Part shown: one piece after another, positions 1 to 12,241 of the stretch
Layout: each line of letters begins with the position of its first letter
Numbering within the stretch: the first letter of the stretch is position 1
Origin: Promethearchaeota archaeon
Lineage (GTDB): Archaea; Asgardarchaeota; Lokiarchaeia; Sigyniarchaeales; SOKP01
DNA: 12,241 nt
NCBI GenBank assembly: GCA_019894975.1
Contig: JAGXNO010000073.1
Coordinates: forward strand, 1 to 12,241
Direction: 5' to 3'
The notes under the pieces: generated by a model
The model's input: the letters and a program-made list of their open reading frames with translations, nothing else
Told to the model about the DNA's origin: nothing
Databases searched by the model: none
Made by a program: the position numbers and the translations under genes

Positions 1-627
1 GTCGTAAGGTCTTCCAATAAAACCGTTCTCATCGCCTTCAGAATTAAGGCAGCTCCAGATAAAAGTAATAGTTTCTTGTGGATTTATTAAATCCAATCTA
101 CCTAAAATATCCAAAGATAAGACAGCATAACAATGGATTTCAAGCATCGAGCTTAAAGGATAATACTTTTGAGGAAAGTTCATGTTTAGATACCGGTGCG
201 TATACTCGTCTGTAAATATCTGAAATTCTTCAGAATAATGATCTAAGATATAATCTACTATTCTAGTTCGGTTTATGCAATCTAACTTGCCGAGTGCTTC
301 GAAGATATACAGTCCATAGTATGTCGCCTGTAAGGAAGACTCGTAAATCTGTGGGAAATATCCTAAATTGTCGTAATCGTTGAGTTTTCTTTCGAAAATT
401 GCTTCAATGTCATCTCCATTGTCAATAGACGAGATTTTTGGGTTTAATTTGCTGATTTCATCAGGATTTACCTCAATGTATCCTCGATCGATAGCATCAA
501 AATTATTCTCAATCAATGAAAAGTGTGGCGTCGAAAAGGTGCCAATGAAAATAACTACGATAATAATTGTTTCTATTGTTTTTTCTTTAATTTTAAAATT
601 AGCTTGTGGAGTGGTTAGTTGCATCAT
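1..627 (-). CDS. Secreted/membrane-anchored protein with prenyltransferase/squalene-oxidase-like (alpha/alpha toroid) repeats; continues beyond the left window edge
   Basis: Manual translation: ATG at 627-625 (second ATG 624-622), in-frame TAA upstream at 654-652, open to position 1. Reads MMQLTTPQANFKIKEKTIETIIIVVIFIGTFSTPHF...GYFPQIYESSLQATYYGLYIFEALGKLD...HCYAVLSLDILGRLDLINPQETITFIWSCLNSEGDENGFIGRPYD. It has a hydrophobic N-terminal segment and two 'T/C-Y-x-x-L-x-x-x-x-x-LG-K/R-LD' units resembling prenyltransferase-type repeats. Absent from the ORF track because the stop lies outside the window. Confidence 0.8.
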   Translation of the reverse strand, partial: MMQLTTPQANFKIKEKTIETIIIVVIFIGTFSTPHFSLIENNFDAIDRGYIEVNPDEISKLNPKISSIDNGDDIEAIFERKLNDYDNLGYFPQIYESSLQATYYGLYIFEALGKLDCINRTRIVDYILDHYSEEFQIFTDEYTHRYLNMNFPQKYYPLSSMLEIHCYAVLSLDILGRLDLINPQETITFIWSCLNSEGDENGFIGRPYD

Positions 628-1048
628 AAAATTATAAAAAATCTCCCATATTTAAAGAAAAATTCAAAAAACCAGATATTTTGTATTCCTCCTTTTTTTG
701 GGTGGATGCAAAATTCAGTTATTATTTAATTTATAATCTACCGATTCTGGTGTTATAAATTGATATTATAGAAAAAATTTTAAATAAAAGAAAAATTTTT
801 ATAGTAAAAACTCAAGTATTATTTAGATTACAAAAAAGAACGAAATAAAATGGCTGAACTCGTAAATGCGTTATTATCTCCCATGGCAACATATGTAAGA
901 AAAAAAACCGTAGAAAAAATTAAAAAAAGAAGGAACAAGAAGAAATTAACATTAAAGTTTTTTTAATTTTTTTTAAATTCTTTATTCATTAAATTCTGAA
1001 AAATGAAGAATAAAGGCTAAATACTAAATAATAAAAAGTAGATTTTTT

Positions 1049-2908
1049 TTATGGGACTTGTCCACCATCTATGATAGTCCAACTATAATTATTTATAATA
1101 CTCGCTCTTGCAGTTGTAGCGGCACCTGTGCTATATTGTGAATTGCCTCCATGAAAAGTTACACCATTATGTAAAACTAATTGAGACCAACCGATTAACA
1201 AACTATCATAATTAGTTGTTGATAAAGTTGCCAAAGAAAACATATCCCACATAGTCATAACGTTTGAAACATCCCAATTACCAATGTTTTGGTTAAAGGA
1301 AGTTGCCCCCATGAACATACCCGACATAGAGATTACACTCAACACGTTCCAATTGCTAATATTTCGGTTAAAAGATCTTGCCTCATTGAACGTACCCCAC
1401 ATAGATAAAACATTTGATACATCCCAGCTATTGATGGGCTGGTTGAAAGAAAATGCCTGAGCGAACATGACAGCCATGTCTGTCACGCTCGAAACATCCC
1501 AGCTATCTATGGGCTGGTTAAAGGAAGTTGCAGATTGGAACATAGCGGTCATGTCTGTCACGCTCGAAACATCCCAGCTATTGATGGGCTGGTTGAATGA
1601 AGAAGCAGCGGCGAACATTCTCTCCATGTCTGTCACGCTCGAGACATTCCAACTATCGATGGGATGGTTAAAGGATGAAGCACCTAAAAACTTATTCTTC
1701 ATGGTTGTTACGCTCGAGACATTCCAGCTATTTATGGATTGGTCAAAGGAGGAAGCAGAACTGAACATACTCGCCGTGGTTGTCACGCTCGAGACATCCC
1801 AGCTATCTATGGGTTGGTTAAAGGATGAAGCACCTTGGAACATATTTGCCATGGTTGTCACGCTCGAGATGTCCCAGCTATCTATGGGTTGGTTAAAGGA
1901 TGAAGCATAACTAAACATACTCGTCATTATTGTCACGCTCGAGACATCCCAGTTATTGATGGACTGGTTAAAGGATGAAGCATAACTAAACATACTCGTC
2001 ATTGTTGTCACGCTCGAGACATCCCAGCTATCGATGGGCTGGTTAAAGGAAGTTGCACCATAGAACATGTAGCTCAAATTTATCACATTTGACAGATCAA
2101 AATTGTTCATATTTCCGCTACTTCCCAAATTTTCGCATCCCCTAAATGTATTATTTAAAGTAGTTATTCCTGTTAAATTTAATTTATCAGTTGCAGTAAG
2201 ATTTAGATTAGTACATCCATAAAAATTACTTCCAAAATTCCCTAATTGTAATGAACCCCAATCTTTAATCTCAAGTAGTTTTAATCTATCTCCATTATTA
2301 TTATCATTTTTATGAAACCTCCAACCAAGGATTGTTCCATTTATTGAAATATCATACACACCTTCTGAAGTATATGTATGATTTACTTCTGATTGATTCC
2401 AGCTAATAATCGTATCGATATTTCCATCACCCCAATCAATGGTAAAATTATAGGTTCCAGTTGATTCCAATGGTAATGCAACTTGATTATTAGAACTCGA
2501 ACTTGAACTTGCTAATGTAGTATTCCATACTGAGTTAAAAAATGTATCTATGGAAAAACTGACTGATGTATTTCCAATATTTCCTGCTGAATCATTAGCC
2601 CATACATGTATTGTATTTGAACCATTTCTAAATTTAATAAATTGTGCTGAATTACAAATGACATCTACACCATTCCAGTTGTACCATATTGTATCTATTC
2701 TTATGTTGTCAGTTGCATTAATTTCCAGTAATTGCGTAGTTGCATGATATGTTGTATTAGAAAGGCTGATTATTTGCACTTTTGGGTTTGTTGTATCAAT
2801 TTCTTCGGGTTTTTCAGAAGGACTTATTAGGAAAATAATTACTGTTATAAGAGAACTTACTAATATGACTGATATCAATAAAACTAAGAAATTTTTTTTT
2901 TTTTCCAT
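1049..2908 (-). CDS. BspA-family (DUF285) leucine-rich-repeat surface protein with N-terminal TM anchor, Ig-like and PKD-like domains
   Basis: 619 aa. KKK + hydrophobic helix (aa ~7-28); Ig-like segment ([10 protein letters not shown]...[13 protein letters not shown]); PKD-like FTIDWGDG...[15 protein letters not shown]; 25-aa repeats WDVSSVTxMxxMFxxAxSFNQPIxS; typical C-cap NYDSLLIGW...WTIIDGG. Confidence 0.93.
1277..2101 (-). repeat. Coding tandem array of 11 x 75-bp units (plus a partial 12th) encoding DUF285 repeats
   Basis: Exact 75-nt periodicity; the central units share near-identical DNA (tgtcacgctcgagacatcccagcta...ggttaaaggatgaagca). Confidence 0.95.
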
Positions 2909-2985
2909 ATTTTAGTCCTTTAGTTTTTTACTTAGTAAATTTGTGAATAAAACCTTGCACGCTACCTTTTCAAATTATTAACTCA

Positions 2986-2993
2986 TATATAAA
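2986..2993 (-). promoter_or_regulatory. Candidate archaeal TATA box (TTTATATA) for the BspA-like gene
   Basis: TTTATATA on the minus strand with A-rich sequence upstream, ~78 nt before the ATG at 2908. The AT-rich background makes a chance match likely. Confidence 0.3.
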
Positions 2994-3290
2994 TATTATT
3001 AAAATTACTTAAACAGTCTCATAGGTGAATATCTGTTTATTTAGGATAGCTATTTGATTTACTCTTCCCTTCCTCATATTTATTATTTTTATGGAAGTTG
3101 ATAAAAACCGTTCTATAAAAAGAAAAAGATTTATTTTTGGATCTAATTGCAAATTGAGATCAAATTAATCTTAAAAATTGATTTCCTCGCACCTTTTTTC
3201 TTTATATAGAATAATTTTTTAAGAACCATAAAAGTTTGATTTACCTTTAAGGTTCAAGAAAAGGTAAGTTAATCAAAAAGTGATAAAAGA

Positions 3291-6200
3291 ATGGTTGAAA
3301 TTGAAGTCAAAAAAATTGAAAGAGATGAAATTATTGTATGTGGAGCTTGTAATAATGCAATTCCAAAAGATTTTCTCGAAAGAAGTGTAGGGCGAGTAAA
3401 AAATCTCTATTGCCAATATTGTGGCGTATCCTTAAACTTGGATTACGATCTAAAAATTAATAATGAAGATGGTGAAAACCATAATAATACTCTTTATACA
3501 CAAGAAGAATCAAGTTTGACTAATATTCAACAGAATAGCCAAGAAAGTGATTTTTCTTTGAGTTACACAAATATAAGGAGCTCTCTACGAAGTTATATTT
3601 TTCAGCTGATTTATCAGTTGTTAAAAAGCACTCCTTTCACCCTTAAAAAAATCCAGAATAAAAAAGAATTGAAAACTTCGCATATAAATATTATACTCAA
3701 AAAAATTTGGAACGAATTAAAAGACTTGAATCCAAATAATTTAGCTAATCAAGAATTGGTAAGCTCAAAACGAAGAATTAAGAATTACTTTGAAGAATTT
3801 CAATCATCGCTACGACCCTACAATAATTTTCGGAAGAAGAATTTTGCTCTTTTTGCAGAAAACATTGAATTCGTTTTCGGGTTAATTTTAGGAGATTATG
3901 AATTCTCAAACCTTACAACCTCTAAAAAACGGATTGTTCTCGATTTAAAAAAGAGGTTTGGATTTAAATCAGATACAGCAACAACGAATTCATTTACTTA
4001 TACCATCTCATTAATCCTAAGTAAAAAGATTCGCAGTATTCCTACTCAATATCACATAACAGAAGGGAATAATAATAAATTAGCGTTAGATGAAATAATT
4101 GGTTATGTAATTGATTATTTAGTCACTAATAAGGTTAAAATATTTGATTTAAGTGAATTTAACAACTCCAAAAAAAAAAAGTTTCATAGAACACTGAAGA
4201 TTTTAATCTATAATTTAAAATCGGACTGGATTTATCGCAAGAGTTTTGAAGATCACATTTATAAATTAACCATAATCGTTAATTCCTTAATAAACAATAT
4301 TGAATATTCGTCCAGCCTTACCGGGTTTGAACGGCTTATTAGCCAAGGATTAAAGCAGTCAGCTCTCTTTGAAAAAGACCAAGATTTCTCTCCTTATTTT
4401 AAACTTAACTTAACTCTAATTTTAAGCCGAATTATATACATAAAAATAAAAAATTCCCCGGGTATAACCAAATTAAACTCTCAACCCGTAAATTTGAGCA
4501 TTACGGAAGAAATTGAAATTAGAAATTCAATTTTAGATGAAATTACAGCAGGTAAAAAAATCAACTCTCAATTATTGAAGAAGTTTTATATGTTCTCGCT
4601 AGAAAAATTTCAAACCTATTATAAAAAATTACAATTAAAATTATCTTCGGATTTGATATATGTGGAGAGCTTTCGTAATTACCTTAGTGACCTTGTAAAA
4701 CTCGTGTTTACTATCGTACATTCAATTTCAAAAAAATCACAACTCACTAAACTCGAACTTGCTGTAATAAAAGATTTAGCGAATTATAATTTTGAATGGT
4801 TCAATAAAAAAGCTCTTGAGAGATATAATGAGAACGAGGATTTGACTACAAAGTCTATGGAATTATTTGAAAAATCTCAAGATGAAAAAGTTTTAATGAA
4901 CCAAATAAGTAAATCTGATGAAATTGTTAGAATTTTTAAATTTAAACCAATAGTTCTAGTAAAATTAATTGAGCAACTAGGAAGAAATTTAAATGTTAGA
5001 CTTGACATTAAAGATGAAATCTACCTGCAGAAAAAAAAGAAGTATACTTATTCTTCAAGTTATTCTGATGGAGATATAGAATTTTGGATCGAATTATATA
5101 AATTAAAGTATTATGGTGGATCTTGGCCGGCTGTTTTTGAATTTATTATTGAATGCAATAACCGTTTTAATCTAAAAATTGATACTCCACATTATTATAA
5201 CGGAATGATACCTATCGCGAAAACATATTTTAAGCAGAATAGCTTGAATTATGAAGAATTTATAATAAAGCATGGAATTTATAAGAGTAAGCAACCATCT
5301 ACTGATGAGATTGTTCTCGAATGGATAAAAATATATCAAAATCGAGATTTAGGGGGATCAATCTCTGCTATTATGAACTATTTAGAAAATCATCAAGGCT
5401 ATACCTTTGGAGAGACAACAATAAGGCGTCATATAAGGAAATTTTTTATGAATGGAAAATATGGAAATTATTTTAGTGAGGATTTAACTTATGATGAATG
5501 GAAAACAAGATATAAAAGAAATTTTTTTAGAGAAGATATGCCTCTTGACCCTAAAACCCAATCACATGAATACATCTTATTATATAATGAAAAAAAAAAT
5601 CAATACAAACGAGTATTTATTAAAGATCTTGAAAATCCAGAATTATTAGAAAATATGGATGAGTTACAGATTCTTGGAATTTCAAACAATTTACAACCAA
5701 AAAAAGTGAATTTTAGTCATTTTGAAAAAAAAGATCTTCAGGAATCCTTAGAAATTGTTTGTAGCCATGGATCAGTAATAATTTCTCCAGAGCAGTATCT
5801 TTACACCATAGATGATGACAGCAACATAATTGAAATTAAGGGACGCGATCTAAAAGTTGGAACGCCAATATTGATGCCAAGAATTTTAAAAATCGATTCA
5901 AATGATGAACCTTTAGATTTAATAAATTGTGGGAAGTTAATAACTAGCAATACTGCTCAATACATCGAGCAATTTGGTAAGAAAGCATATCGATTTATTA
6001 AAAAAAATGCAAATTTAGGAGCGATAATTGGTCAATATGCAGCTGAGGGGACGATGCCATCGAGACATCAACCCGGAACAACAATTTCAGTTAGCGTGGA
6101 TAAAGATTATATTCAAAAGCTTCAAAAAATAATCAAAGAAGTATTTGGGCTAGAGTTTCAAATATTTGCACGAAGAGTTACGGAGTGCAAAAATTGTGGA

Positions 6201-7064
6201 TCTAAAACAATTGAAAAGGGGAATCAAAATATATGTCCTAAATGTGAAGATGGTACCTATAATGAATGTTATGAATTAAGGACAAAAACAAAGTTAGCAA
6301 AAACTATATTTACTGAGGGTTTAGGGTTAAAACATACTTACTCGTATTTAAAAGAAATTCCATCGTTTTTGTATAATTCGCCAACGGATTGTGAGAAAAG
6401 CTTTATATTAAGTTATTTTAAAGGTGATGGATCGGAACTGGATTATCGTAATAAAGGAGGAACCTTTGAACTCAATTTTGTAACCACTTCTAGACGACTA
6501 GTATTCGGTTTGAATTTGCTTATGAAGAAATTAGGAGTTATTATGAGCGTTAGGGCACATAAACCTTCTAATAGGCCGAACTCGAAAAAACTCTATCAGA
6601 TGAGTATTCGGGGTTCTTCTAATTTTGAATTATTAAAACATCATTTCGAAAATTTACCTGAAATTGACTATACTACTAGCGATATTAGAACTTCTGTAAA
6701 TAATCAAATTCTTATGAGAAAATTAAATTTAGAACTTCAAAAGATGTATGGCATTTCATTGAGAGAATTAAGTAATAGGGGAATTATCCCTAAAAATGCA
6801 CAACATATTGCAACTCAATTAAAAAGAAAAACAAACTTGTCAGAAGTGCTCTTATTAAAAACTCTTGATGGGTTAAGAAATGAAAAACTTCTGACTCCCT
6901 TAGTTAAAAAATTGGAGCAAGTCTTTCGAAAAAACACTTTTACCAGAATAAAGAAAATTATATCTTCTAAAACACCTAATAACTCGTATAATATTTCAGT
7001 AGACGGAATCGGATATTGTTCTGGAACTGCTTTTGTATATGTAAAATCTGAAGAAAAAGAATAA
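3291..7064 (+). CDS. Multidomain protein: Zn ribbon + 3 helical repeats + 2 HTH-like repeats + C-terminal degenerate intein (HINT) with LAGLIDADG endonuclease domain
   Basis: 1257 aa, intact. CGAC..CQYC (aa 17-44); HINT-N motifs (LEIVCSHGSVIISPEQYLYT, EIKGRDLKVGTPILMPR); LAGLIDADG motifs LGAIIGQYAAEG and FILSYFKGDG; block H FVTTSRRLVFGLNLLMKKLGV; HINT-C FTRIKKI...SYNISV...VYVKS. Confidence 0.9.
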   Translation: MVEIEVKKIERDEIIVCGACNNAIPKDFLERSVGRVKNLYCQYCGVSLNLDYDLKINNEDGENHNNTLYTQEESSLTNIQQNSQESDFSLSYTNIRSSLRSYIFQLIYQLLKSTPFTLKKIQNKKELKTSHINIILKKIWNELKDLNPNNLANQELVSSKRRIKNYFEEFQSSLRPYNNFRKKNFALFAENIEFVFGLILGDYEFSNLTTSKKRIVLDLKKRFGFKSDTATTNSFTYTISLILSKKIRSIPTQYHITEGNNNKLALDEIIGYVIDYLVTNKVKIFDLSEFNNSKKKKFHRTLKILIYNLKSDWIYRKSFEDHIYKLTIIVNSLINNIEYSSSLTGFERLISQGLKQSALFEKDQDFSPYFKLNLTLILSRIIYIKIKNSPGITKLNSQPVNLSITEEIEIRNSILDEITAGKKINSQLLKKFYMFSLEKFQTYYKKLQLKLSSDLIYVESFRNYLSDLVKLVFTIVHSISKKSQLTKLELAVIKDLANYNFEWFNKKALERYNENEDLTTKSMELFEKSQDEKVLMNQISKSDEIVRIFKFKPIVLVKLIEQLGRNLNVRLDIKDEIYLQKKKKYTYSSSYSDGDIEFWIELYKLKYYGGSWPAVFEFIIECNNRFNLKIDTPHYYNGMIPIAKTYFKQNSLNYEEFIIKHGIYKSKQPSTDEIVLEWIKIYQNRDLGGSISAIMNYLENHQGYTFGETTIRRHIRKFFMNGKYGNYFSEDLTYDEWKTRYKRNFFREDMPLDPKTQSHEYILLYNEKKNQYKRVFIKDLENPELLENMDELQILGISNNLQPKKVNFSHFEKKDLQESLEIVCSHGSVIISPEQYLYTIDDDSNIIEIKGRDLKVGTPILMPRILKIDSNDEPLDLINCGKLITSNTAQYIEQFGKKAYRFIKKNANLGAIIGQYAAEGTMPSRHQPGTTISVSVDKDYIQKLQKIIKEVFGLEFQIFARRVTECKNCGSKTIEKGNQNICPKCEDGTYNECYELRTKTKLAKTIFTEGLGLKHTYSYLKEIPSFLYNSPTDCEKSFILSYFKGDGSELDYRNKGGTFELNFVTTSRRLVFGLNLLMKKLGVIMSVRAHKPSNRPNSKKLYQMSIRGSSNFELLKHHFENLPEIDYTTSDIRTSVNNQILMRKLNLELQKMYGISLRELSNRGIIPKNAQHIATQLKRKTNLSEVLLLKTLDGLRNEKLLTPLVKKLEQVFRKNTFTRIKKIISSKTPNNSYNISVDGIGYCSGTAFVYVKSEEKE
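5541..7049 (+). other. Intein-derived module (HINT-N / LAGLIDADG / HINT-C), predicted non-splicing
   Basis: Intein blocks occur in the canonical order A, B, C, E, H, F, G. Block A lacks a Cys/Ser nucleophile (PLDPKT), block B TxxH is SPEQ, block F Asp is Asn, the terminal His-Asn is Lys-Ser, and only EEKE* follows. Confidence 0.8.
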
Positions 7065-7074
7065 AGAGAGCTAA

Positions 7075-7152
7075 TTATCTAATAACTAAAGCAGGTTTTC
7101 CCGGTAGTGCTTGGCTTGCTTTCTGATCGGTGGAATTCTTTTCAATCAAAAC
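7075..7152 (-). pseudogene. leuS: Displaced, diverged 3'-terminal fragment of leuS (last 25 codons + TAA)
   Basis: Translates [25 protein letters not shown] versus [25 protein letters not shown] at 9231-9308. Ungapped, 60/78 nt and 17/25 aa identical, same strand, same stop position. Confidence 0.93.
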
Positions 7153-7160
7153 TGCTCCTC

Positions 7161-9083
7161 TTAAATCTTTAGATCATACTGGATTTTTTCATTTCTTAGA
7201 CGAAATTGGTTAATAGCGTCATAAAATGGATTTAATTTCATTTCAAATGCGAATTTTTCATTCCTTCTCTCAGGATCCTCTTCTAACTTTTCTTTAATAG
7301 GCAAAATCAAATATTCTTCAGTAAAAAATTTTTTAAATGTTTGCCTAAATTTTTTTTTATTTGGGTAAGGGTAATCCTTTCCACTAACAATCATAGGATA
7401 AGCTTTCATTAAGTTATCTTTAAAATTCCTCAGTGAGAAATCGATTAGAATTGATTCATAACCTTTAATGTTTAAATTTTTATCTTCTGACTCTATGAGT
7501 TCATTGGATTCATTTTTGGACTTTTTTAATTCAGTTAATAATAATTGTCTCTGACTTTCTATTAATGTAGCACCAAGAACATTTATCCACTTATCGTATA
7601 AATCAAGAATTACGTCAGGTTCAAAATTCTCAGTTACAAAATCAGGATAGAAAAAAGCTCCATGATCTCCAATTTTTCCTTTTTTCTCACTATATTTTTG
7701 TGGTCTTTCATAGTCTAGGAAAAAGAAATAAATTCGATCTTTTAATGGTCTGTTGATAGTCAGTGCTTGTATCGTTTTATCAATACCTCCTATGTTTTCA
7801 ACAGATATTGGAAATAATAACCATTTGTTATCAAAATAATATTTCATAAGTGTTTTCTCAGTTCCACCTTCCGTATATAAAACAAAGGGAGTAGAGGCAA
7901 ATAAGCCAAAATCAGCTAGAACCGATCCTCTAAACTCTATAGCCTCTGACTCATTATTCAAATAAAAATAAGGTTGCTCTTTTTCTTTATTTTTAGGCCA
8001 AATTATCAAATTAAATTCAAATAATTCCCATGTAATTCTCGTTAGGTTTCTCAATAAAGCTAAAATGTTTACTGAAATATTTAAATTTCCATAAAGTTTA
8101 CTTAGTTTATTTTTGCGAATCACATCTAATAAGTTTTCCAAGCTTTCAAGACCGTTTATTTTATTTTTCGAAGAATGAATAAAGTGGTGATATATCCGGC
8201 TATACATTTTCTTTAAAATATCCTGTTCTCCTTGCGTTAGAAAATTCCTCTTATCGTTTAATTTTTCATTAGTCCAGTTTTTAAATTTAGCAAGTACTTC
8301 TTCTCTTTCATTTTTATCAAATTGAGATTTAGTATTTAGTTGCGGATAAATATTTACGCCACTTGGTGTTATAAAATACTCCCCAAAAAGCATAAGTGAA
8401 TCCAATTTTATCCATACTTTAAGGAAATCAAAAAACAGCCAATGAGAACCAGTCAAATGCCGATAAAAATTATCAGAGACTTTTTTATATCTAATAGCCT
8501 GCTTTAAATCTTTTTTATTTTTTCTTATCTGCTGGCGTTTTTGCCTAAAAGTTCTTTCTTTAGAGTTTTTGACATTTTTATTGTACATTTCGAATCTTCT
8601 CTTAATTTTAGTCTCTCTCCATTTTTTCTCTTCATTTTCTATTCTCCTTAGCTGTTTTTTCCTCTTTTTTCCTTCAATATTAATATTGATATATTTTTTT
8701 TGCAAATAGTAATAAAACTTGCTTTCCTTGCTATAATATTTCTTAAAACTATCCCAATACAATATGAATTGAAAAAATTGAAAAGGATGGTAAAATTTAA
8801 TGAAGTCTTTCTCTTTTGGTTCATTTGGAAAAAAACTGAATCTTCCTCTTCTATCTAGTTCCTGTCCGTATTCCGAATCTGCTTTTGTAATATAAATTGG
8901 TTGAAACAAATTATTCTCTTCTAGAAAATCTAAAAGATGATAACATTCAGTAATTTCACCTTTATATTGCACATAACCAAGTTCCTCGGCCCAATTAAAT
9001 AATCCTTTTCTTGAAAGTAGATTCCGATGTAAAAATGGTGAGTAACTTTCCCATATATCAAAAACAGTTGTCGATTCTATCAT
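7161..9083 (-). CDS. Hypothetical protein with C-terminal TOPRIM-like (OLD-family-type) nuclease domain
   Basis: 640 aa. FVLYTEGGTEKTLM...ISVENIGG...FFFLDYE...TENF matches the TOPRIM pattern hhhhEGxxE...hhxxGG...hhhDxD/E. A basic coiled-coil-like stretch lies near aa 135-200. No Walker A motif was seen. Confidence 0.75.
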   Translation of the reverse strand: MIESTTVFDIWESYSPFLHRNLLSRKGLFNWAEELGYVQYKGEITECYHLLDFLEENNLFQPIYITKADSEYGQELDRRGRFSFFPNEPKEKDFIKFYHPFQFFQFILYWDSFKKYYSKESKFYYYLQKKYININIEGKKRKKQLRRIENEEKKWRETKIKRRFEMYNKNVKNSKERTFRQKRQQIRKNKKDLKQAIRYKKVSDNFYRHLTGSHWLFFDFLKVWIKLDSLMLFGEYFITPSGVNIYPQLNTKSQFDKNEREEVLAKFKNWTNEKLNDKRNFLTQGEQDILKKMYSRIYHHFIHSSKNKINGLESLENLLDVIRKNKLSKLYGNLNISVNILALLRNLTRITWELFEFNLIIWPKNKEKEQPYFYLNNESEAIEFRGSVLADFGLFASTPFVLYTEGGTEKTLMKYYFDNKWLLFPISVENIGGIDKTIQALTINRPLKDRIYFFFLDYERPQKYSEKKGKIGDHGAFFYPDFVTENFEPDVILDLYDKWINVLGATLIESQRQLLLTELKKSKNESNELIESEDKNLNIKGYESILIDFSLRNFKDNLMKAYPMIVSGKDYPYPNKKKFRQTFKKFFTEEYLILPIKEKLEEDPERRNEKFAFEMKLNPFYDAINQFRLRNEKIQYDLKI

Positions 9084-9207
9084 TATTATTAAGCTGATAC
9101 CATTTGTTTTACATTATATTCCAAAATTCCTTAAATTCAAACAATTAATTTGTTTAATAATAATTAAGATGTTTTATTAATTTTTTAATATGATATAATG
9201 ACCTACA

Positions 9208-9230
9208 GAAACCCAAATAAACCAAATAAA
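9208..9230 (-). terminator. Candidate T-rich archaeal terminator after leuS
   Basis: The minus strand reads TTTATTTGGTTTATTTGGGTTT immediately after the leuS TAA. Confidence 0.3.
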
Positions 9231-12026
9231 TTATCCTATTATTAAAGCTGGTTTTCCAGGTAGTGCTTGAATTGCTTTCTTTTCATTGGATTCTTTTTCA
9301 AATAATACCGTAACCTTACAATCGAATCTCTTCTCAACGATTGAGGCGATATCTTCAAAAAACTGATATTCTTCGCTGGCTGAAAGAATAACATTTGAGT
9401 ATTTTCCAATGTTTTTCAACACTTTTTTTATTGTTTGAACCACGAATTTACTATGTTTTTTATATTCATCGTGTTCCATGATTTCTTTCGTAATGATGCC
9501 TTGATTTGTGGTTTTTTCAATTAACGATAAGAGATCTGTGTAGAACTTAAATTTCCATTCGTCAGCTATGATAATTGTAATTTCGTTCAGTTTGTCAGTT
9601 TTAGTTGCTTGCTTAATGTTATGAATATCTTCTATTATGGTATTCAAGAGATTCCTTTTAAATTCGTTTTCCCTCGTTAAAATATTGTCGTTGTAGGATG
9701 GCCAGGGTGCTATAGTAACAAATCCTTCTTTTCCAAGTATCTCCCAAAGCTCTTCTGTGATATGCGGAGCAATTGGATGAAAAAGTAATATTAATTTTTC
9801 GATACACTCATTAAAAATATCGTTTTGTCCGCCGCCTTCTTTATATTTTCTGAGCTCTGAAGTAAATTGGATTATATGATTAATAACATCTCGTAAGGCA
9901 ACTTTATCGAAACTTTCGGAAACGGTTTTAATAGTTTTATGCAAGTTATAGAGAATTAACTGATCGCTTATAGAATGCTTTTCCCGGACAGGTTTAATTG
10001 GTTCTAATAGGAGGTAAAAAATATTCTTAATAAATTTATAAGCAAAACCAATCCCTTCGTCAGACCATTCCAAACCGGATTCGGGACTAGCTCCAAAAAG
10101 AATAAAAAATCTTGAGGCATCTGCTCCATATTTATTCATCAACCCAATTGGATCCACCGTATTACCTAGACTTTTGCTCATCTTAACGCTTTTTAATATA
10201 TATTTAGTTCCACATCTTTTACAAGTTTCGTTCTGCATTTCAGCTTTCATAGCAAAAGTTTCACAATTCGAACAGTAAGGGTGGGCTTTATTGACCATTC
10301 CTTGAGTTAATAATCGTTGAAATGGTTCATCAAATTTGTGCAGTCCAAGATCTCGAGCAACTCGGGTAAAGAAACGTGCGTACATTAAATGAAGAATGGC
10401 ATGTTCGATTCCTCCTGCATAGAAATCAACATTCATCCAATAATCTGCTATTTCTTTTTTGTACGGTAAATTTTTCTCATTCGGATCGCAATACCTGAAG
10501 AAATACCATGAACTATCTACGAATGTGTCCATAGTATCTGTTTCCCTTTTTGCTTGTTTCCCACATTTTGGACAAGGGACATTAACATAAGTCTCACTCG
10601 TTTTTAAAGGATTTCCTCTTCCCGTAAAGGTAACATCTTTTGGTAACTCCACAGGTAAATCATCGAAAGGAACGGGTACGATACCACAAGTATCACAATA
10701 GATAATTGGTATTGGGCACCCCCAATAGCGTTGTCGGGAAATTAGCCAATCTCTTAGTTTGTAGTTTACAGTTTCTTGTCCCACATCTATTGAAGAAAGT
10801 TTTTTAGATATAGCGTTTATCGCGGATCGGTTTTCCATACCATCAAACTCATTTGAGTTCACTAAAGTTCCATCACCTTCATAGGCTCGGATCATTTTTT
10901 CAGCATTTAATTCGTAATCAAATGGTTGAATAACAACTTTTATTGGGATATCGAATTTCTTGGCAAATTCAAAATCCCGTTGGTCGTGTCCAGGGACTGC
11001 CATAACGGCTCCCGCACCATATTCGTAAATGACAAAATTACCAATATATATAGGGATCTCCTCTTTAGTTAGAGGGTTAATCGCATGTTTTCCAATAAAT
11101 ATGCCTTTCTTCTCAACTTCTATGTCTGTTCTTTGAAATTTATTCTGTCTAATAGTTTCCGTATAAAGGTTCTGAAAATCAGATTCATATTTGGTCTTTT
11201 CTACCCATTTCTTAACCCAAGGATGCTCGGGGGCAAATACCATAAATGTGACTCCATACAATGTATCTGGTCGAGTAGTAAAAATATCAATGGTTCTTTT
11301 TTCCCCAACAATTGGAAATTTTATTATAGTTCCCTCTGATCTTCCAATCCAATTACGCTGCATCGTTTTCACTTTTTCTGGCCAATCAACCGTATCTAAA
11401 CCGTCCAAAAGTTCTTCGGCGTAATCTCGAATTTTTAAAAGCCACTGGGTTAAAAATCGTTGTTCTACTTCAGAACTGCAACGCCAACATTTACCGCTTT
11501 GAACTTGCTCGTTAGCTAGCACAGTTACGCATTTTGGGCACCAATTCACGTAACTTTCTTGTCTATAAGCCAAACCTTTCTCGTACATTTTTAAGAAAAA
11601 CCATTGATCCCACTTGTAATATTTAGGGTCATGAGAATAGACCATACGGGTCCAATCATATGAGAGTCCTATACGTTTTTGTTGTTCCTGAATTGATTTC
11701 ATATTAAGGTTTGTCCACTCTTCAGGATCCACTCCATGATCAATTGCCGCGTTTTCAGCAGGTAGTCCATAGCTATCGTAACCCATTGGGTATAAAACAT
11801 TAAACCCTTTCATCCTTTTAAATCTTGCAAACGAATCTCCTATTGAATAATTACGAAGGTGTCCAATATGCAAATCAGAGCTTGGATAAGGATACATCTC
11901 TAATACGTAATATTTTTCTTTTCCACCTTTGCTTAGATCTTCTTTGACTTCGAAAATCTTCTCTTTTTCCCAAATTTCTTGCCATTTTTTCTCGATTTTT
12001 TGAAAATCGTATTCAATATTAGTCAT
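9231..12026 (-). CDS. leuS: Leucyl-tRNA synthetase (bacterial-type catalytic core, archaeal-type C-terminal domain)
   Basis: 931 aa. [13 protein letters not shown] (HIGH at 11859-11870), [21 protein letters not shown] and [13 protein letters not shown] editing motifs, [41 protein letters not shown] (10170-10184), C-terminal [10 protein letters not shown]. Confidence 0.98.
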
Positions 12027-12241
12027 TTTGTGTCAAAATCGTTTTTTTAAAGTTGAATATTAAAATATAAACATGAATAATTTAAACAATAAATTTTTTT
12101 ATAAATAATTAGCATCTGTATTGCATGACTCTATCATTTTATTCCGTAAGCTTCTCATTAAAATGACAAAGCCAAGCAGATGTTAAAAATTTGAAATTAA
12201 AACATCTTAAATTATTTCTATAAAATAAAGATTATTAAGTC

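What the first reader, a model, noticed from the sequence alone, without database searches (positions are those of the whole stretch)
7075..9308. Hidden second leuS 3' end: gene insertion with replacement of an essential gene's tail
Seen: most of the 96-bp gap between the convergent genes is a 78-nt copy of the leuS terminus with 18 mismatches. Six codons differ only synonymously and QALPGKPAL is fully conserved. The copy begins 8 nt after the 640-aa gene's stop and ends 10 nt from the 1257-aa gene's stop. Inference: both copies diverged while coding, so the fragment is probably the former leuS end, once directly convergent with the 1257-aa gene. It was then displaced when foreign DNA brought a different leuS end plus the TOPRIM gene. 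No recombinase is present, so homing-like repair, homology-facilitated illegitimate recombination or a trans-acting integrase are all candidates.
Basis: partly seen in the sequence, partly recalled or inferred. Interest (0 to 1): 0.85.

Follow-up and report, generated by a model that had tools for sequence, protein, structure and literature searches.

The report
Displaced old end of leuS
A nuclease gene was inserted into the last 26 codons of the essential leucyl-tRNA synthetase gene of an Asgard archaeon together with a substitute gene end. The old end was left behind as a relic, and the same thing has happened repeatedly, with different cargo, in related genomes.

Summary
**Observation: confirmed.** Window 7075-7152 is an ungapped 78-nt copy of the leuS terminus (9231-9308). 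It has 60/78 identities, and the next best offset in the window gives 40/78.

- In relatives G108 and G123, leuS runs directly into the convergent 1257-aa gene with no 640-aa gene between them.
- The relic and its flank line up with those junctions.
- G102 carries the predicted ending ...[15 protein letters not shown] at 47 of the 48 aligned positions.

**The cargo** is an OLD-family TOPRIM nuclease without the ATPase (Z 11.8 to solved OLD C-terminal regions).

**The pattern recurs in this Asgard family.** G023, G073, G082, G085, G066 and G108 also carry leuS 3' relics of 22-389 aa, with different cargo and no integrase. In G023, G073 and G085 the resident LeuS is a clear chimera. It is about 85-88% identical to close relatives up to a conserved block and about 48-55% after it. 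The relics of G023 and G073 keep the native-type end.

**Mechanism: inferred.** I favour recombination anchored in leuS homology, without an integrase. It may be triggered by the neighbouring intein-derived LAGLIDADG protein, as in yeast WHO/FBA1 elements.

**Unresolved.** It is not shown that the new tail in this window was foreign.

**Earlier in this scan.** A similar principle was noted once before, on a phage (e1-1969355), but not on leuS.

The parts
9231..12026 (-). Intact leuS (931 aa). It has a bacterial-type core with an archaeal-type C-terminal domain.
   Evidence: It matches TIGR00396 leuS_bact at E 7e-292 over residues 6-787. It matches the archaeal LeuS models over residues 609-930.
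9231..9308 (-). Resident (current) leuS 3' end, ...[25 protein letters not shown]. This is one arm of the direct repeat.
   Evidence: Its closest tail is that of G108, with 11 differences in 78 nt.
9084..9230 (-). 147-nt spacer between the leuS stop and the start of the 640-aa gene. It is part of the inserted block.
   Evidence: It is collinear, with indels, with the L089 spacer inside a single 4.9-kb alignment at 86.6% identity. It has no counterpart in the empty sites of G108 and G123.
7161..9083 (-). Cargo: a 640-aa protein. Residues 1-390 form a helical domain of unknown type. Residues 395-630 form an OLD-family TOPRIM nuclease domain. There is no ATPase domain.
   Evidence: - The window's protein gives no direct Pfam, PADLOC or NCBIfam hit.
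- 18 of 40 family members hit PF20469 OLD-like_TOPRIM.
- G406 and D457 are invariant, and E405, T408 and E409 nearly invariant, across 40 members.
- The AlphaFold2 model has pLDDT 87.
- VIA-align gives Z 11.4-11.8 to the C-terminal regions of class 2 OLD proteins, followed by AriB, GajA and retron Eco8.
- Homologues lie in defence neighbourhoods.
7153..7160 (.). Junction between the inserted block and the relic. At most 2-3 nt are ambiguous, so it looks like an illegitimate join.
   Evidence: Homology of the leuS-640 block to L089 ends at 7155. Homology to a leuS tail starts at 7152.
7075..7152 (-). Relic: the displaced former leuS 3' end (25 codons plus the stop), [25 protein letters not shown].
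   Evidence: It is collinear with the leuS ends of G108, G123 and G102. It is 88.5% identical to the functional tail of L089.
7065..7074 (.). 10-nt gap between the relic's stop and the stop of the convergent 1257-aa gene. This is the original leuS/1257 junction.
   Evidence: The same tight convergent junction is found in G123, G108 (where one base separates the two stops) and G102.
3291..7064 (+). 1257-aa protein with a C-terminal intein-like Hint plus LAGLIDADG domain and no C-extein. It is an older neighbour of leuS and a candidate homing-type nuclease.
   Evidence: - LAGLIDADG_3 scores 32 bits against a cut-off of 22.5. Intein_splicing scores below its cut-off.
- The protein ends ...AFVYVKSEEKE.
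- In G102 its homologue is flanked by leuS tails on both sides.
- Homologues or remnants lie next to leuS in three genera.

Best explanation
**What it is.** The 78-nt copy at 7075-7152 is the former 3' end of leuS. In the ancestral state leuS ran tail to tail into the 1257-aa gene. A block of about 2.1 kb then entered inside the last 26 codons of leuS. It consisted of a substitute leuS end, a 147-nt spacer and a 640-aa OLD-type TOPRIM nuclease gene. leuS stayed whole and the old end was pushed downstream as a non-coding relic.

**How it most likely happened (inferred).** No site-specific recombinase was involved.
- On the leuS side, the incoming DNA was joined by homologous recombination within leuS.
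- On the far side, it was joined illegitimately to codon -26. This fits break repair or homology-facilitated illegitimate recombination.

**Wider pattern.** The event is one instance of a recurrent hot spot at the 3' end of leuS in this Asgard family. The hot spot builds stacks of cargo genes separated by leuS tail relics and makes LeuS chimeric.

**My split for what drives the hot spot:**
- about 0.35: breaks made by the adjacent intein-derived LAGLIDADG protein (WHO-like homing);
- about 0.35: untargeted homology-anchored illegitimate recombination;
- about 0.1: an integrase acting in trans;
- about 0.15: in-situ duplication of the organism's own tail.
For: **Shown for this locus:**
- The repeat is real and far beyond chance.
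- Empty sites exist in G108 and G123. The relic and its flank are collinear with them and with G102.
- The relic differs from the functional L089 tail mostly at synonymous sites (6 synonymous, 2 non-synonymous codons), so it was recently a coding tail.
- The relic-side junction is sharp, at 7152-7155.
- The same junctions appear in four other assemblies.
- No integrase or transposase domain was found in the window, and no tRNA gene.

**Shown for relatives:**
- Relics of 22, 66, 67, 102, 129 and 389 aa lie between leuS and the conserved downstream gene block in G085, G082, G108, G066, G023 and G073.
- Their cargos are unrelated to one another: a cobalamin operon, a 1221-aa protein of unknown function, a membrane protein and a subtilase. 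None contains an integrase.
- The resident LeuS of G073, G023 and G085 switches identity to G001/G003 right after the conserved block [16 protein letters not shown]. It goes from about 85-88% to about 48-55%. The G073 and G023 relics are 85% and 82% identical to G001.
Against: - L089, a related contig, has the same leuS-spacer-640 block (86.6% over 4.9 kb) but no relic. Its resident tail is of the relic's type. The new tail and the 640-aa gene therefore need not have arrived together as foreign DNA.
- The window's LeuS shows no single breakpoint. It is a mosaic of L089-like and G108-like runs along its whole length.
- The resident tail resembles the G108 tail more (24/28 aa) than the relic does (18/28).
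- The conserved downstream block that follows relics elsewhere is not on this contig, so the complete stack is unseen.
- No read-level check was possible.
- The mechanism itself is inference only.
Confidence: 0.72

Rival explanations
1. **WHO-like homing.** A nuclease encoded next to leuS cuts leuS alleles that lack the matching tail. The candidates are the intein-derived LAGLIDADG protein family of the 1257-aa gene and, for the newest layer, perhaps the TOPRIM protein. Repair from an element-bearing copy then copies the nuclease gene together with a cut-resistant leuS 3' end, and the old end is displaced. Repetition builds the relic stack.
For: - The anatomy matches the published WHO/FBA1 model point by point. 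That model has a replaced 3' end, relic fragments, the newest unit nearest the full gene, and a chimeric host gene (PMC7282813, section 10).
- The 1257-aa family carries a LAGLIDADG_3 domain in an intein-like frame without a C-extein.
- That family lies next to leuS in three genera. It is convergent downstream in G108, G123, G102, L089 and the window. A decayed 90-aa remnant follows the foreign tail in G085. It lies directly upstream of leuS in G063 and G064.
- In G102 the gene is flanked by two leuS tails.
- The chimera breakpoint follows a highly conserved block, which is a typical homing target.
Against: - No cleavage data exist.
- Several cargos encode no recognisable nuclease.
- OLD-type TOPRIM nucleases are known as defence enzymes, not as site-specific homing enzymes (own knowledge).
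- Relic lengths vary from 22 to 389 aa.
- Homologues of the 1257-aa family also occur away from leuS.
Confidence: 0.3
2. **Integrase acting in trans.** The block is a small integrative cassette. A tyrosine or serine recombinase encoded elsewhere inserted it at an attachment site in the leuS tail. The cassette carries a substitute tail, as prophage e14 and phage 21 do at icd in E. coli.
For: Direct repeats of the target gene's end flank the cargo. The two copies are most alike in a 27-nt stretch, with 25/27 matches.
Against: - That stretch encodes the invariant QALPGKPAL motif, so selection on the protein explains the similarity.
- The longest exact identity, read from the two copies printed, is only 11 nt.
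- Relic boundaries differ in every genome, from 22 to 389 aa.
- No integrase was found in the window or in six other cargos.
Confidence: 0.08
3. **In-situ duplication.** The 640-aa gene was inserted with a duplication of the organism's own last 26 codons, for example by repair of a staggered break. No foreign tail was involved. The two copies then diverged, and the resident copy was later overwritten by allelic recombination.
For: - The relic is as similar to the resident tail of L089 (88.5%) as the flanking blocks are between the two contigs (86.6-87.6%).
- LeuS is mosaic along its whole length.
- In G066 the relic is closest to that genome's own resident tail, at 78%.
Against: - It needs an extra event to explain 23% divergence between the two copies.
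- It cannot explain G023, G073 and G085, where the resident end is about 50% identical to the native type.
- The synonymous bias of the relic against L089 argues that the relic has spent little time as a pseudogene.
Confidence: 0.12
4. **Artefact.** The repeat results from a mis-join of two leuS-bearing strains in a mixed bin, or the relic comes from an unlinked leuS paralogue.
For: The bin holds two bacterial-type leuS genes (C146 and C98, 67% identical). It also holds second copies of the downstream block on C149 and C41, and its contamination estimate is 8.55%.
Against: - The two repeat arms are only 77% identical, so assemblers would not collapse or cross them.
- Four independent assemblies give the same contig.
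- The relic matches neither the C98 tail nor the archaeal-type LeuS. It sits exactly at the ancestral junction seen in G108, G123 and G102.
Confidence: 0.02

Closest known systems
WHO elements at FBA1 in Torulaspora and Lachancea yeasts (Coughlan et al. 2020, PMC7282813; follow-up preprint 10.64898/2026.08.13.744650)
   Same: - A selfish or cargo unit lies beside an essential gene.
- Each arrival replaces the gene's 3' end.
- The old ends remain downstream as relics, with the newest unit nearest the gene.
- The host gene becomes chimeric.
- The neighbouring protein is intein-derived, carries a LAGLIDADG domain and does not splice.
   Different: - These are archaea, not yeasts, and the target is leuS, not aldolase.
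- Cleavage is untested.
- The newest cargo here is a TOPRIM nuclease, not an intein-zinc-finger protein.
- Other layers carry metabolic or surface genes.
- No meiosis is involved, so a template copy would have to come from polyploidy or DNA transfer.
Prophage e14 and phage 21 integration into icd of E. coli (own knowledge: Hill et al. 1989; Campbell et al. 1992; not re-read here)
   Same: The element carries a diverged substitute 3' end of an essential metabolic gene. The gene therefore stays intact, and the old end remains as a pseudo-fragment. Differences between the two ends are largely synonymous.
   Different: Those elements use their own integrase at a fixed attachment core. Here no integrase was found, the boundaries vary, and the cargo is a single gene.
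Homology-facilitated illegitimate recombination in naturally transformable bacteria (own knowledge: de Vries and Wackernagel 2002; Prudhomme et al. 2002)
   Same: There is a one-sided homologous anchor in a conserved gene and a short-microhomology join at the other end. No dedicated recombinase is needed.
   Different: It usually deletes recipient DNA rather than duplicating it, is not tied to one gene, and has not been described in Asgard archaea.
Free-standing homing endonuclease genes of phages ('intronless homing', e.g. T4 SegF; own knowledge). A phage case was noted earlier in this scan (e1-1969355).
   Same: A nuclease gene lies beside its target gene and spreads with co-conversion of a resistant flank. 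The scan's phage case also carries a recoded copy of a gene end.
   Different: The classical cases leave no duplicated relic. They occur in phages, not in a cellular essential gene.
OLD-family TOPRIM nucleases (class 2 OLD, Gabija GajA, PARIS AriB, retron Eco8 effector)
   Same: Residues 395-630 of the 640-aa protein share the TOPRIM-plus-helical catalytic region and its acidic motif residues.
   Different: There is no ABC ATPase domain and no ATPase partner gene in the window. The N-terminal 390 residues belong to no recognised family. The family is small (82 representatives) and, where homologues carry a source name, Asgard.

Membership tests
WHO-type homing element | The unit lies beside an essential host gene and supplies a replacement 3' end, so the gene stays intact. 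| tested here: met
   leuS is intact with an alternative end, and the old end lies 2156 nt downstream.
WHO-type homing element | Relic 3' fragments of the host gene lie downstream, stacked by successive arrivals. | tested here: met
   G102 has two tails around the 1257-aa homologue. The window has one relic. G085, G023, G073, G082, G066 and G108 have relics upstream of the conserved downstream block.
WHO-type homing element | The host gene evolves as a chimera: its 5' and 3' parts have different histories. | tested here: inconclusive
   This is clear in G073, G023 and G085. In the window's own leuS there is only a diffuse mosaic without a single breakpoint.
WHO-type homing element | The unit encodes an intein-derived LAGLIDADG endonuclease that does not splice. 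| tested here: inconclusive
   The neighbouring 1257-aa protein scores above the cut-off for LAGLIDADG_3 and below it for Intein_splicing. It ends six residues after a degenerate block-G-like motif. The newest unit, the 640-aa gene, instead encodes a TOPRIM nuclease.
WHO-type homing element | The nuclease cuts sensitive alleles of the host gene in an allele-specific way. | not testable with these tools
   This needs a biochemical or genetic assay.
Integrase-borne integrative element with target 3'-end replacement (icd/e14 type) | The element encodes a tyrosine or serine recombinase. | tested here: not met
   There is no such domain in any ORF of the window or in the cargos of G023, G073, G066, G082, G085 and G108.
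Integrase-borne integrative element with target 3'-end replacement (icd/e14 type) | An identical attachment core lies at both ends, and the boundaries are fixed between instances. | tested here: not met
   The longest exact identity, read from the two copies, is 11 nt. Relic lengths are 22, 26, 45, 66, 67, 102, 129 and 389 aa.
OLD-family TOPRIM nuclease (the 640-aa cargo) | TOPRIM fold with a conserved glutamate and a DxD-type acidic motif. | tested here: met
   - VIA-align gives Z 11.8, rmsd 3.3, with 168 residues aligned to 6nk8_B.
- G406 and D457 are invariant, and E405 and E409 nearly invariant, in 40 members.
- 18 of 40 members hit PF20469.
OLD-family TOPRIM nuclease (the 640-aa cargo) | An N-terminal ABC-type ATPase domain (classes 1 and 2), or an ATPase partner gene. 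| tested here: not met
   The window protein gives no ATPase family hit. One of 40 family members gives a weak SMC_N match. Residues 1-390 are modelled as helical. No ATPase gene lies in the window.
Homology-facilitated illegitimate recombination product | One junction lies inside homology, and the other is at a microhomology of a few bases. | tested here: inconclusive
   The relic-side junction is sharp, with at most 2-3 ambiguous bases at 7152-7155. The leuS-side crossover cannot be located.

The most novel reading that the evidence does not exclude
Asgard archaea of this family host a prokaryotic counterpart of the yeast WHO elements. Intein-derived, non-splicing LAGLIDADG proteins encoded beside leuS cut leuS alleles. 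They drive serial replacement of its 3' end, and other genes, such as the TOPRIM nuclease gene here, ride in at the same break site. This builds relic stacks and a chimeric synthetase.
Probability: 0.3. Interest if true: 0.9.

Novelty: new variant of a known kind. Interest (0 to 1): 0.74.

Why it matters
**A datable record of gene gain.** The locus shows how new genes can enter an archaeal chromosome inside an essential gene without harming it and without an integrase. The relics left behind order successive gene arrivals.

**An Asgard parallel to yeast homing elements.** The same locus carries an intein-derived LAGLIDADG protein. Together with the relic stacks and the chimeric LeuS, this reproduces the anatomy of the yeast WHO elements, the family from which the HO mating-type endonuclease was domesticated. 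So far that kind of element has been described only in yeasts. Finding it in Asgard archaea would widen the known range of homing strategies and give a testable case.

**Practical points.**
- leuS 3' relics mark insertion hot spots.
- They may explain the contig breaks seen inside the leuS tail in these metagenome-assembled genomes.
- They warn that LeuS is a mosaic marker for phylogeny in this group.

Tried and rejected
- **Exact look-up of the LeuS protein.** It found no record.
- **The 215 nt upstream of leuS.** They are non-coding and gave no synteny information.
- **Breakpoint test inside the window's leuS.** A max-chi-square test against L089 and G108 gave only a weak signal, and at the 5' end (p 0.044). 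The informative sites form many alternating runs, so no crossover for the tail swap could be placed.
- **Search for a decayed relic in the 120-nt gap of L089.** The result was no better than shuffles.
- **First structure model of the 640-aa protein.** With 16 sequences the TOPRIM region was poor (pLDDT 66). The 40-sequence alignment fixed this.
- **Foldseek against the PDB.** It gave no match at E <= 0.001. The OLD match became clear only with VIA-align.
- **Other searches with the 640-aa protein.** The profile search of PDB sequences and the PADLOC and NCBIfam scans gave nothing.
- **A tRNA gene as attachment site.** None is present in the window.
- **The 1257-aa gene as the conserved native neighbour of leuS.** Rejected. 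The genus-wide conserved neighbours are a 289-aa gene, triosephosphate isomerase and others, and the 1257-aa gene is itself accessory.
- **BLAST comparison of cargo proteins.** The 1221-aa (G073) and 1085-aa (G082) cargo proteins show no similarity to the 1257-aa or 640-aa proteins.
- **Literature searches.** They found no report of leuS relics or WHO-like elements in archaea.

Full report
**1. Observation**

The window is a whole 12,241-nt contig, G000:C146. In the direction of leuS (minus strand) it reads as follows:
- leuS, 9231-12026, 931 aa;
- a 147-nt spacer;
- a 640-aa ORF, 7161-9083;
- 8 nt;
- a 78-nt copy of the leuS end, 7075-7152;
- 10 nt;
- the stop of a convergent 1257-aa gene, 3291-7064;
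- a DUF285 gene;
- the start of a large alpha-toroid protein.

The copy is ungapped with 60/78 identities. The binomial tail is 1e-18, and the best other offset in the window gives 40/78. Six codons differ synonymously and eight non-synonymously. Four other assemblies contain the same arrangement at 99.5-100% identity.

**2. Where the contig belongs**

- G000 has a second bacterial-type leuS on C98, 67% identical. It sits in the arrangement shared by every genus relative examined: radical-SAM gene, leuS, a 289-aa gene, triosephosphate isomerase and about eight further conserved genes.
- G000 also holds extra copies of part of that block on C149 and C41. Its contamination estimate is 8.55%.
- The window's LeuS is about 84-86% identical to G108 and to contig L089. 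It is only 67-71% identical to the genus of the bin.
- The contig therefore most likely comes from a second, related population in the bin.
- Source names of homologues point to Asgard (Lokiarchaeota- or Odinarchaeota-labelled) assemblies.

**3. The relic is the former leuS end**

- In G108, leuS ends ...ALIIK*, and one base later the stop of a 1257-aa-gene homologue (66% identical) follows.
- In G123, leuS ends ...ALVIK* and is likewise convergent with an 82%-identical homologue.
- Neither genome has the 640-aa gene at that place.
- A six-way alignment shows that the window's relic and its downstream flank are collinear with these junctions. The resident tail is followed by unrelated sequence.
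- G102's contig starts 48 nt before a stop codon. It reads [15 protein letters not shown], followed by the same flank. It matches the relic at 47 of the 48 aligned positions, and the only difference in the downstream flank is a single base.
- L089 has an intact leuS ending ...[25 protein letters not shown]. This tail differs from the relic at 9 of 78 nt, with 6 synonymous and 2 non-synonymous codon differences. The relic type is therefore a working tail in a near relative and has not drifted far since it stopped coding.
- The relic-side junction is sharp. Block homology to L089 ends at 7155, and leuS-tail homology begins at 7152.

**4. The cargo**

- The 640-aa protein has no direct family hit.
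- Its family is small: 82 representatives among 1.8 billion proteins.
- 18 of 40 aligned members hit OLD-like_TOPRIM. G406 and D457 are invariant, and E405, T408 and E409 nearly so.
- A model of pLDDT 87 aligns over residues 395-630 with the catalytic C-terminal region of class 2 OLD nucleases (Z 11.4-11.8). AriB, GajA and the retron Eco8 effector follow. A language-model look-up agrees.
- The N-terminal 390 residues are helical and unassigned, and there is no ATPase.
- Homologues lie beside a SMODS/SAVED pair, and in G108 beside DUF3800 and a small GIY-YIG protein. A defence role is therefore the ordinary expectation.

**5. The pattern recurs**

Scanning leuS neighbourhoods in the family gave further relics between leuS and the conserved downstream block.

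| Genome | Relic | Cargo |
|---|---|---|
| G023 | 129 aa | 12-kb cobalamin salvage and transport operon |
| G073 | 389 aa, one frameshift | 1221-aa protein of unknown function |
| G082 | 66 aa | the same protein as G073, 90% identical, in the opposite orientation |
| G066 | 102 aa | a membrane protein |
| G085 | 22 aa | a subtilase, preceded by a decayed 90-aa remnant of a 1257-aa-family gene right after leuS |
| G108 | 67 aa, on another contig | not resolved |
| G102 | a second tail beyond the start of its 1257-aa homologue | the 1257-aa homologue itself |

- The G102 case shows that the 1257-aa gene is itself a cargo flanked by tails.
- None of these cargos has an integrase.
- In several other assemblies, contigs begin or end inside the leuS tail.

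**6. Tail replacement by foreign sequence is proven in relatives**

- The resident LeuS of G073, G023 and G085 is about 85-88% identical to G001 (and, for G073 and G023, to G003 and G004) up to the block [16 protein letters not shown]. After that block the identity falls to about 48-55%. Among themselves the three stay 74-88% identical there.
- Their relics keep the native type. G073's relic is 85% identical to G001 and G003 but 66% to its own resident copy. G023's is 82% against 49%. G082's is 88% identical to G001.
- For the window itself the matter is open, for three reasons.
  - The resident tail is G108-like (11 differences in 78 nt) and the relic is L089-like (9 in 78).
  - leuS is a patchwork of both types along its whole length.
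  - L089 shares the whole leuS-spacer-640 block at 86.6% over 4.9 kb but has 130 unrelated nucleotides in place of the relic.
- The leuS-640 linkage thus predates the split of these two lineages, or the block moves as a unit. The resident tail may have been exchanged again later.

**7. Mechanism**

What is shown:
- an insertion inside the last 26 codons;
- a substitute end that keeps leuS intact;
- a sharp far junction;
- no recombinase gene and no tRNA gene;
- variable relic boundaries across genomes.

What is inferred:
- Homologous pairing within leuS supplies one junction, and an illegitimate join supplies the other.
- A fixed-site integrase is unlikely. The only strongly similar stretch of the two arms encodes the invariant QALPGKPAL motif, and boundaries differ in every case.

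Why one particular gene is hit again and again is the interesting question. I read the model (PMC7282813), and its anatomy matches: a replaced 3' end, relics, the newest unit nearest the gene, and a chimeric host gene.

The 1257-aa family has a LAGLIDADG_3 domain in an intein-like frame that ends without a C-extein. It lies beside leuS in three genera and in two configurations. This makes nuclease-triggered break repair a serious candidate, which I put at about 0.3-0.35. It remains untested, and several cargos encode no nuclease.

**8. Verdict**

- The foreign origin of the new end is unproven for this locus.
- I found no report of such relic stacks at leuS, or of WHO-like elements in archaea, in the literature searched.
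- Replacement of a target gene's end on insertion is a known principle (icd with e14 and phage 21; WHO with FBA1). I therefore rate this a new variant of a known kind, with a high-interest reading still open.

Noticed in passing
G000:C98:141071-143851; G000:C149; G000:C41: The bin holds a second bacterial-type leuS (67% identical) in the conserved genus arrangement. It also holds extra copies of four downstream block genes on two small contigs. The window contig is closest to another genus of the family (about 84-86% LeuS identity to G108 and L089). It is probably from a co-binned population.
   Followed up: partly
window 9231-12026: LeuS matches the bacterial leuS model over residues 6-787 and the archaeal LeuS models over 609-930. 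It thus has a bacterial-type core with an archaeal-type C-terminal domain. These genomes also carry a separate archaeal-type LeuS of about 970 aa. The domain-level chimera could itself be a product of tail swapping.
   Followed up: no
window 3291-7064; L074, L073, L079, L089, L120, L121: The 1257-aa protein has a C-terminal Hint plus LAGLIDADG module with no C-extein (it ends ...VYVKSEEKE). Homologues lie next to leuS in three genera. In G108 and L089 a HerA-like (DUF87) ATPase gene follows it.
   Followed up: partly
window 1049-2908: The DUF285 gene contains internal repeats offset by 75 nt at about 80% identity. Its gene call differs between assemblies: it is split into 293-aa and 289-aa pieces in L061.
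   Followed up: no
L073 (G123:C316) 4081-6924 and 7086-7361: The G123 leuS copy that is convergent with the 1257-aa homologue contains internal stops (1 TGA, 2 TAG), so it is a decaying near-full-length copy. An inverted leuS fragment (aa 793-884) lies at the contig end. A separate leuS 5' part (C381) and a tail followed by the conserved block (C263) exist elsewhere in that genome.
   Followed up: partly
L092 (G108:C68) 7551-11923; L089 604-4600: The upstream side of leuS is also variable. Between the conserved radical-SAM gene and leuS, G108 carries HFX_2341_N, a small GIY-YIG protein, DUF3800 and a 73%-identical copy of the 640-aa gene. L089 carries four other genes there, including an Rce1-like protease.
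   Followed up: partly
L095 2456-6921: A 52%-identical homologue of the 640-aa protein lies beside a SMODS/SAVED (CBASS-type) pair, an SMC_N protein and PIN-domain genes. This is a defence-island setting.
   Followed up: no
L048 (G023:C7) 401-12179: A complete-looking cobalamin salvage and uptake operon lies between leuS and its 129-aa relic. It includes CobS, CobD, CobQ, a CobT-like gene, an aminotransferase and a BtuFCD-type transporter. Here a metabolic operon is the cargo at the same hot spot.
   Followed up: partly
G086:C14/C51, G115:C13, G123:C263, G136:C79, G064:C54, G067:C248: In several assemblies of the family, contigs begin or end inside the leuS 3' region. This may reflect repeated tails or population heterogeneity at this site.
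   Followed up: no
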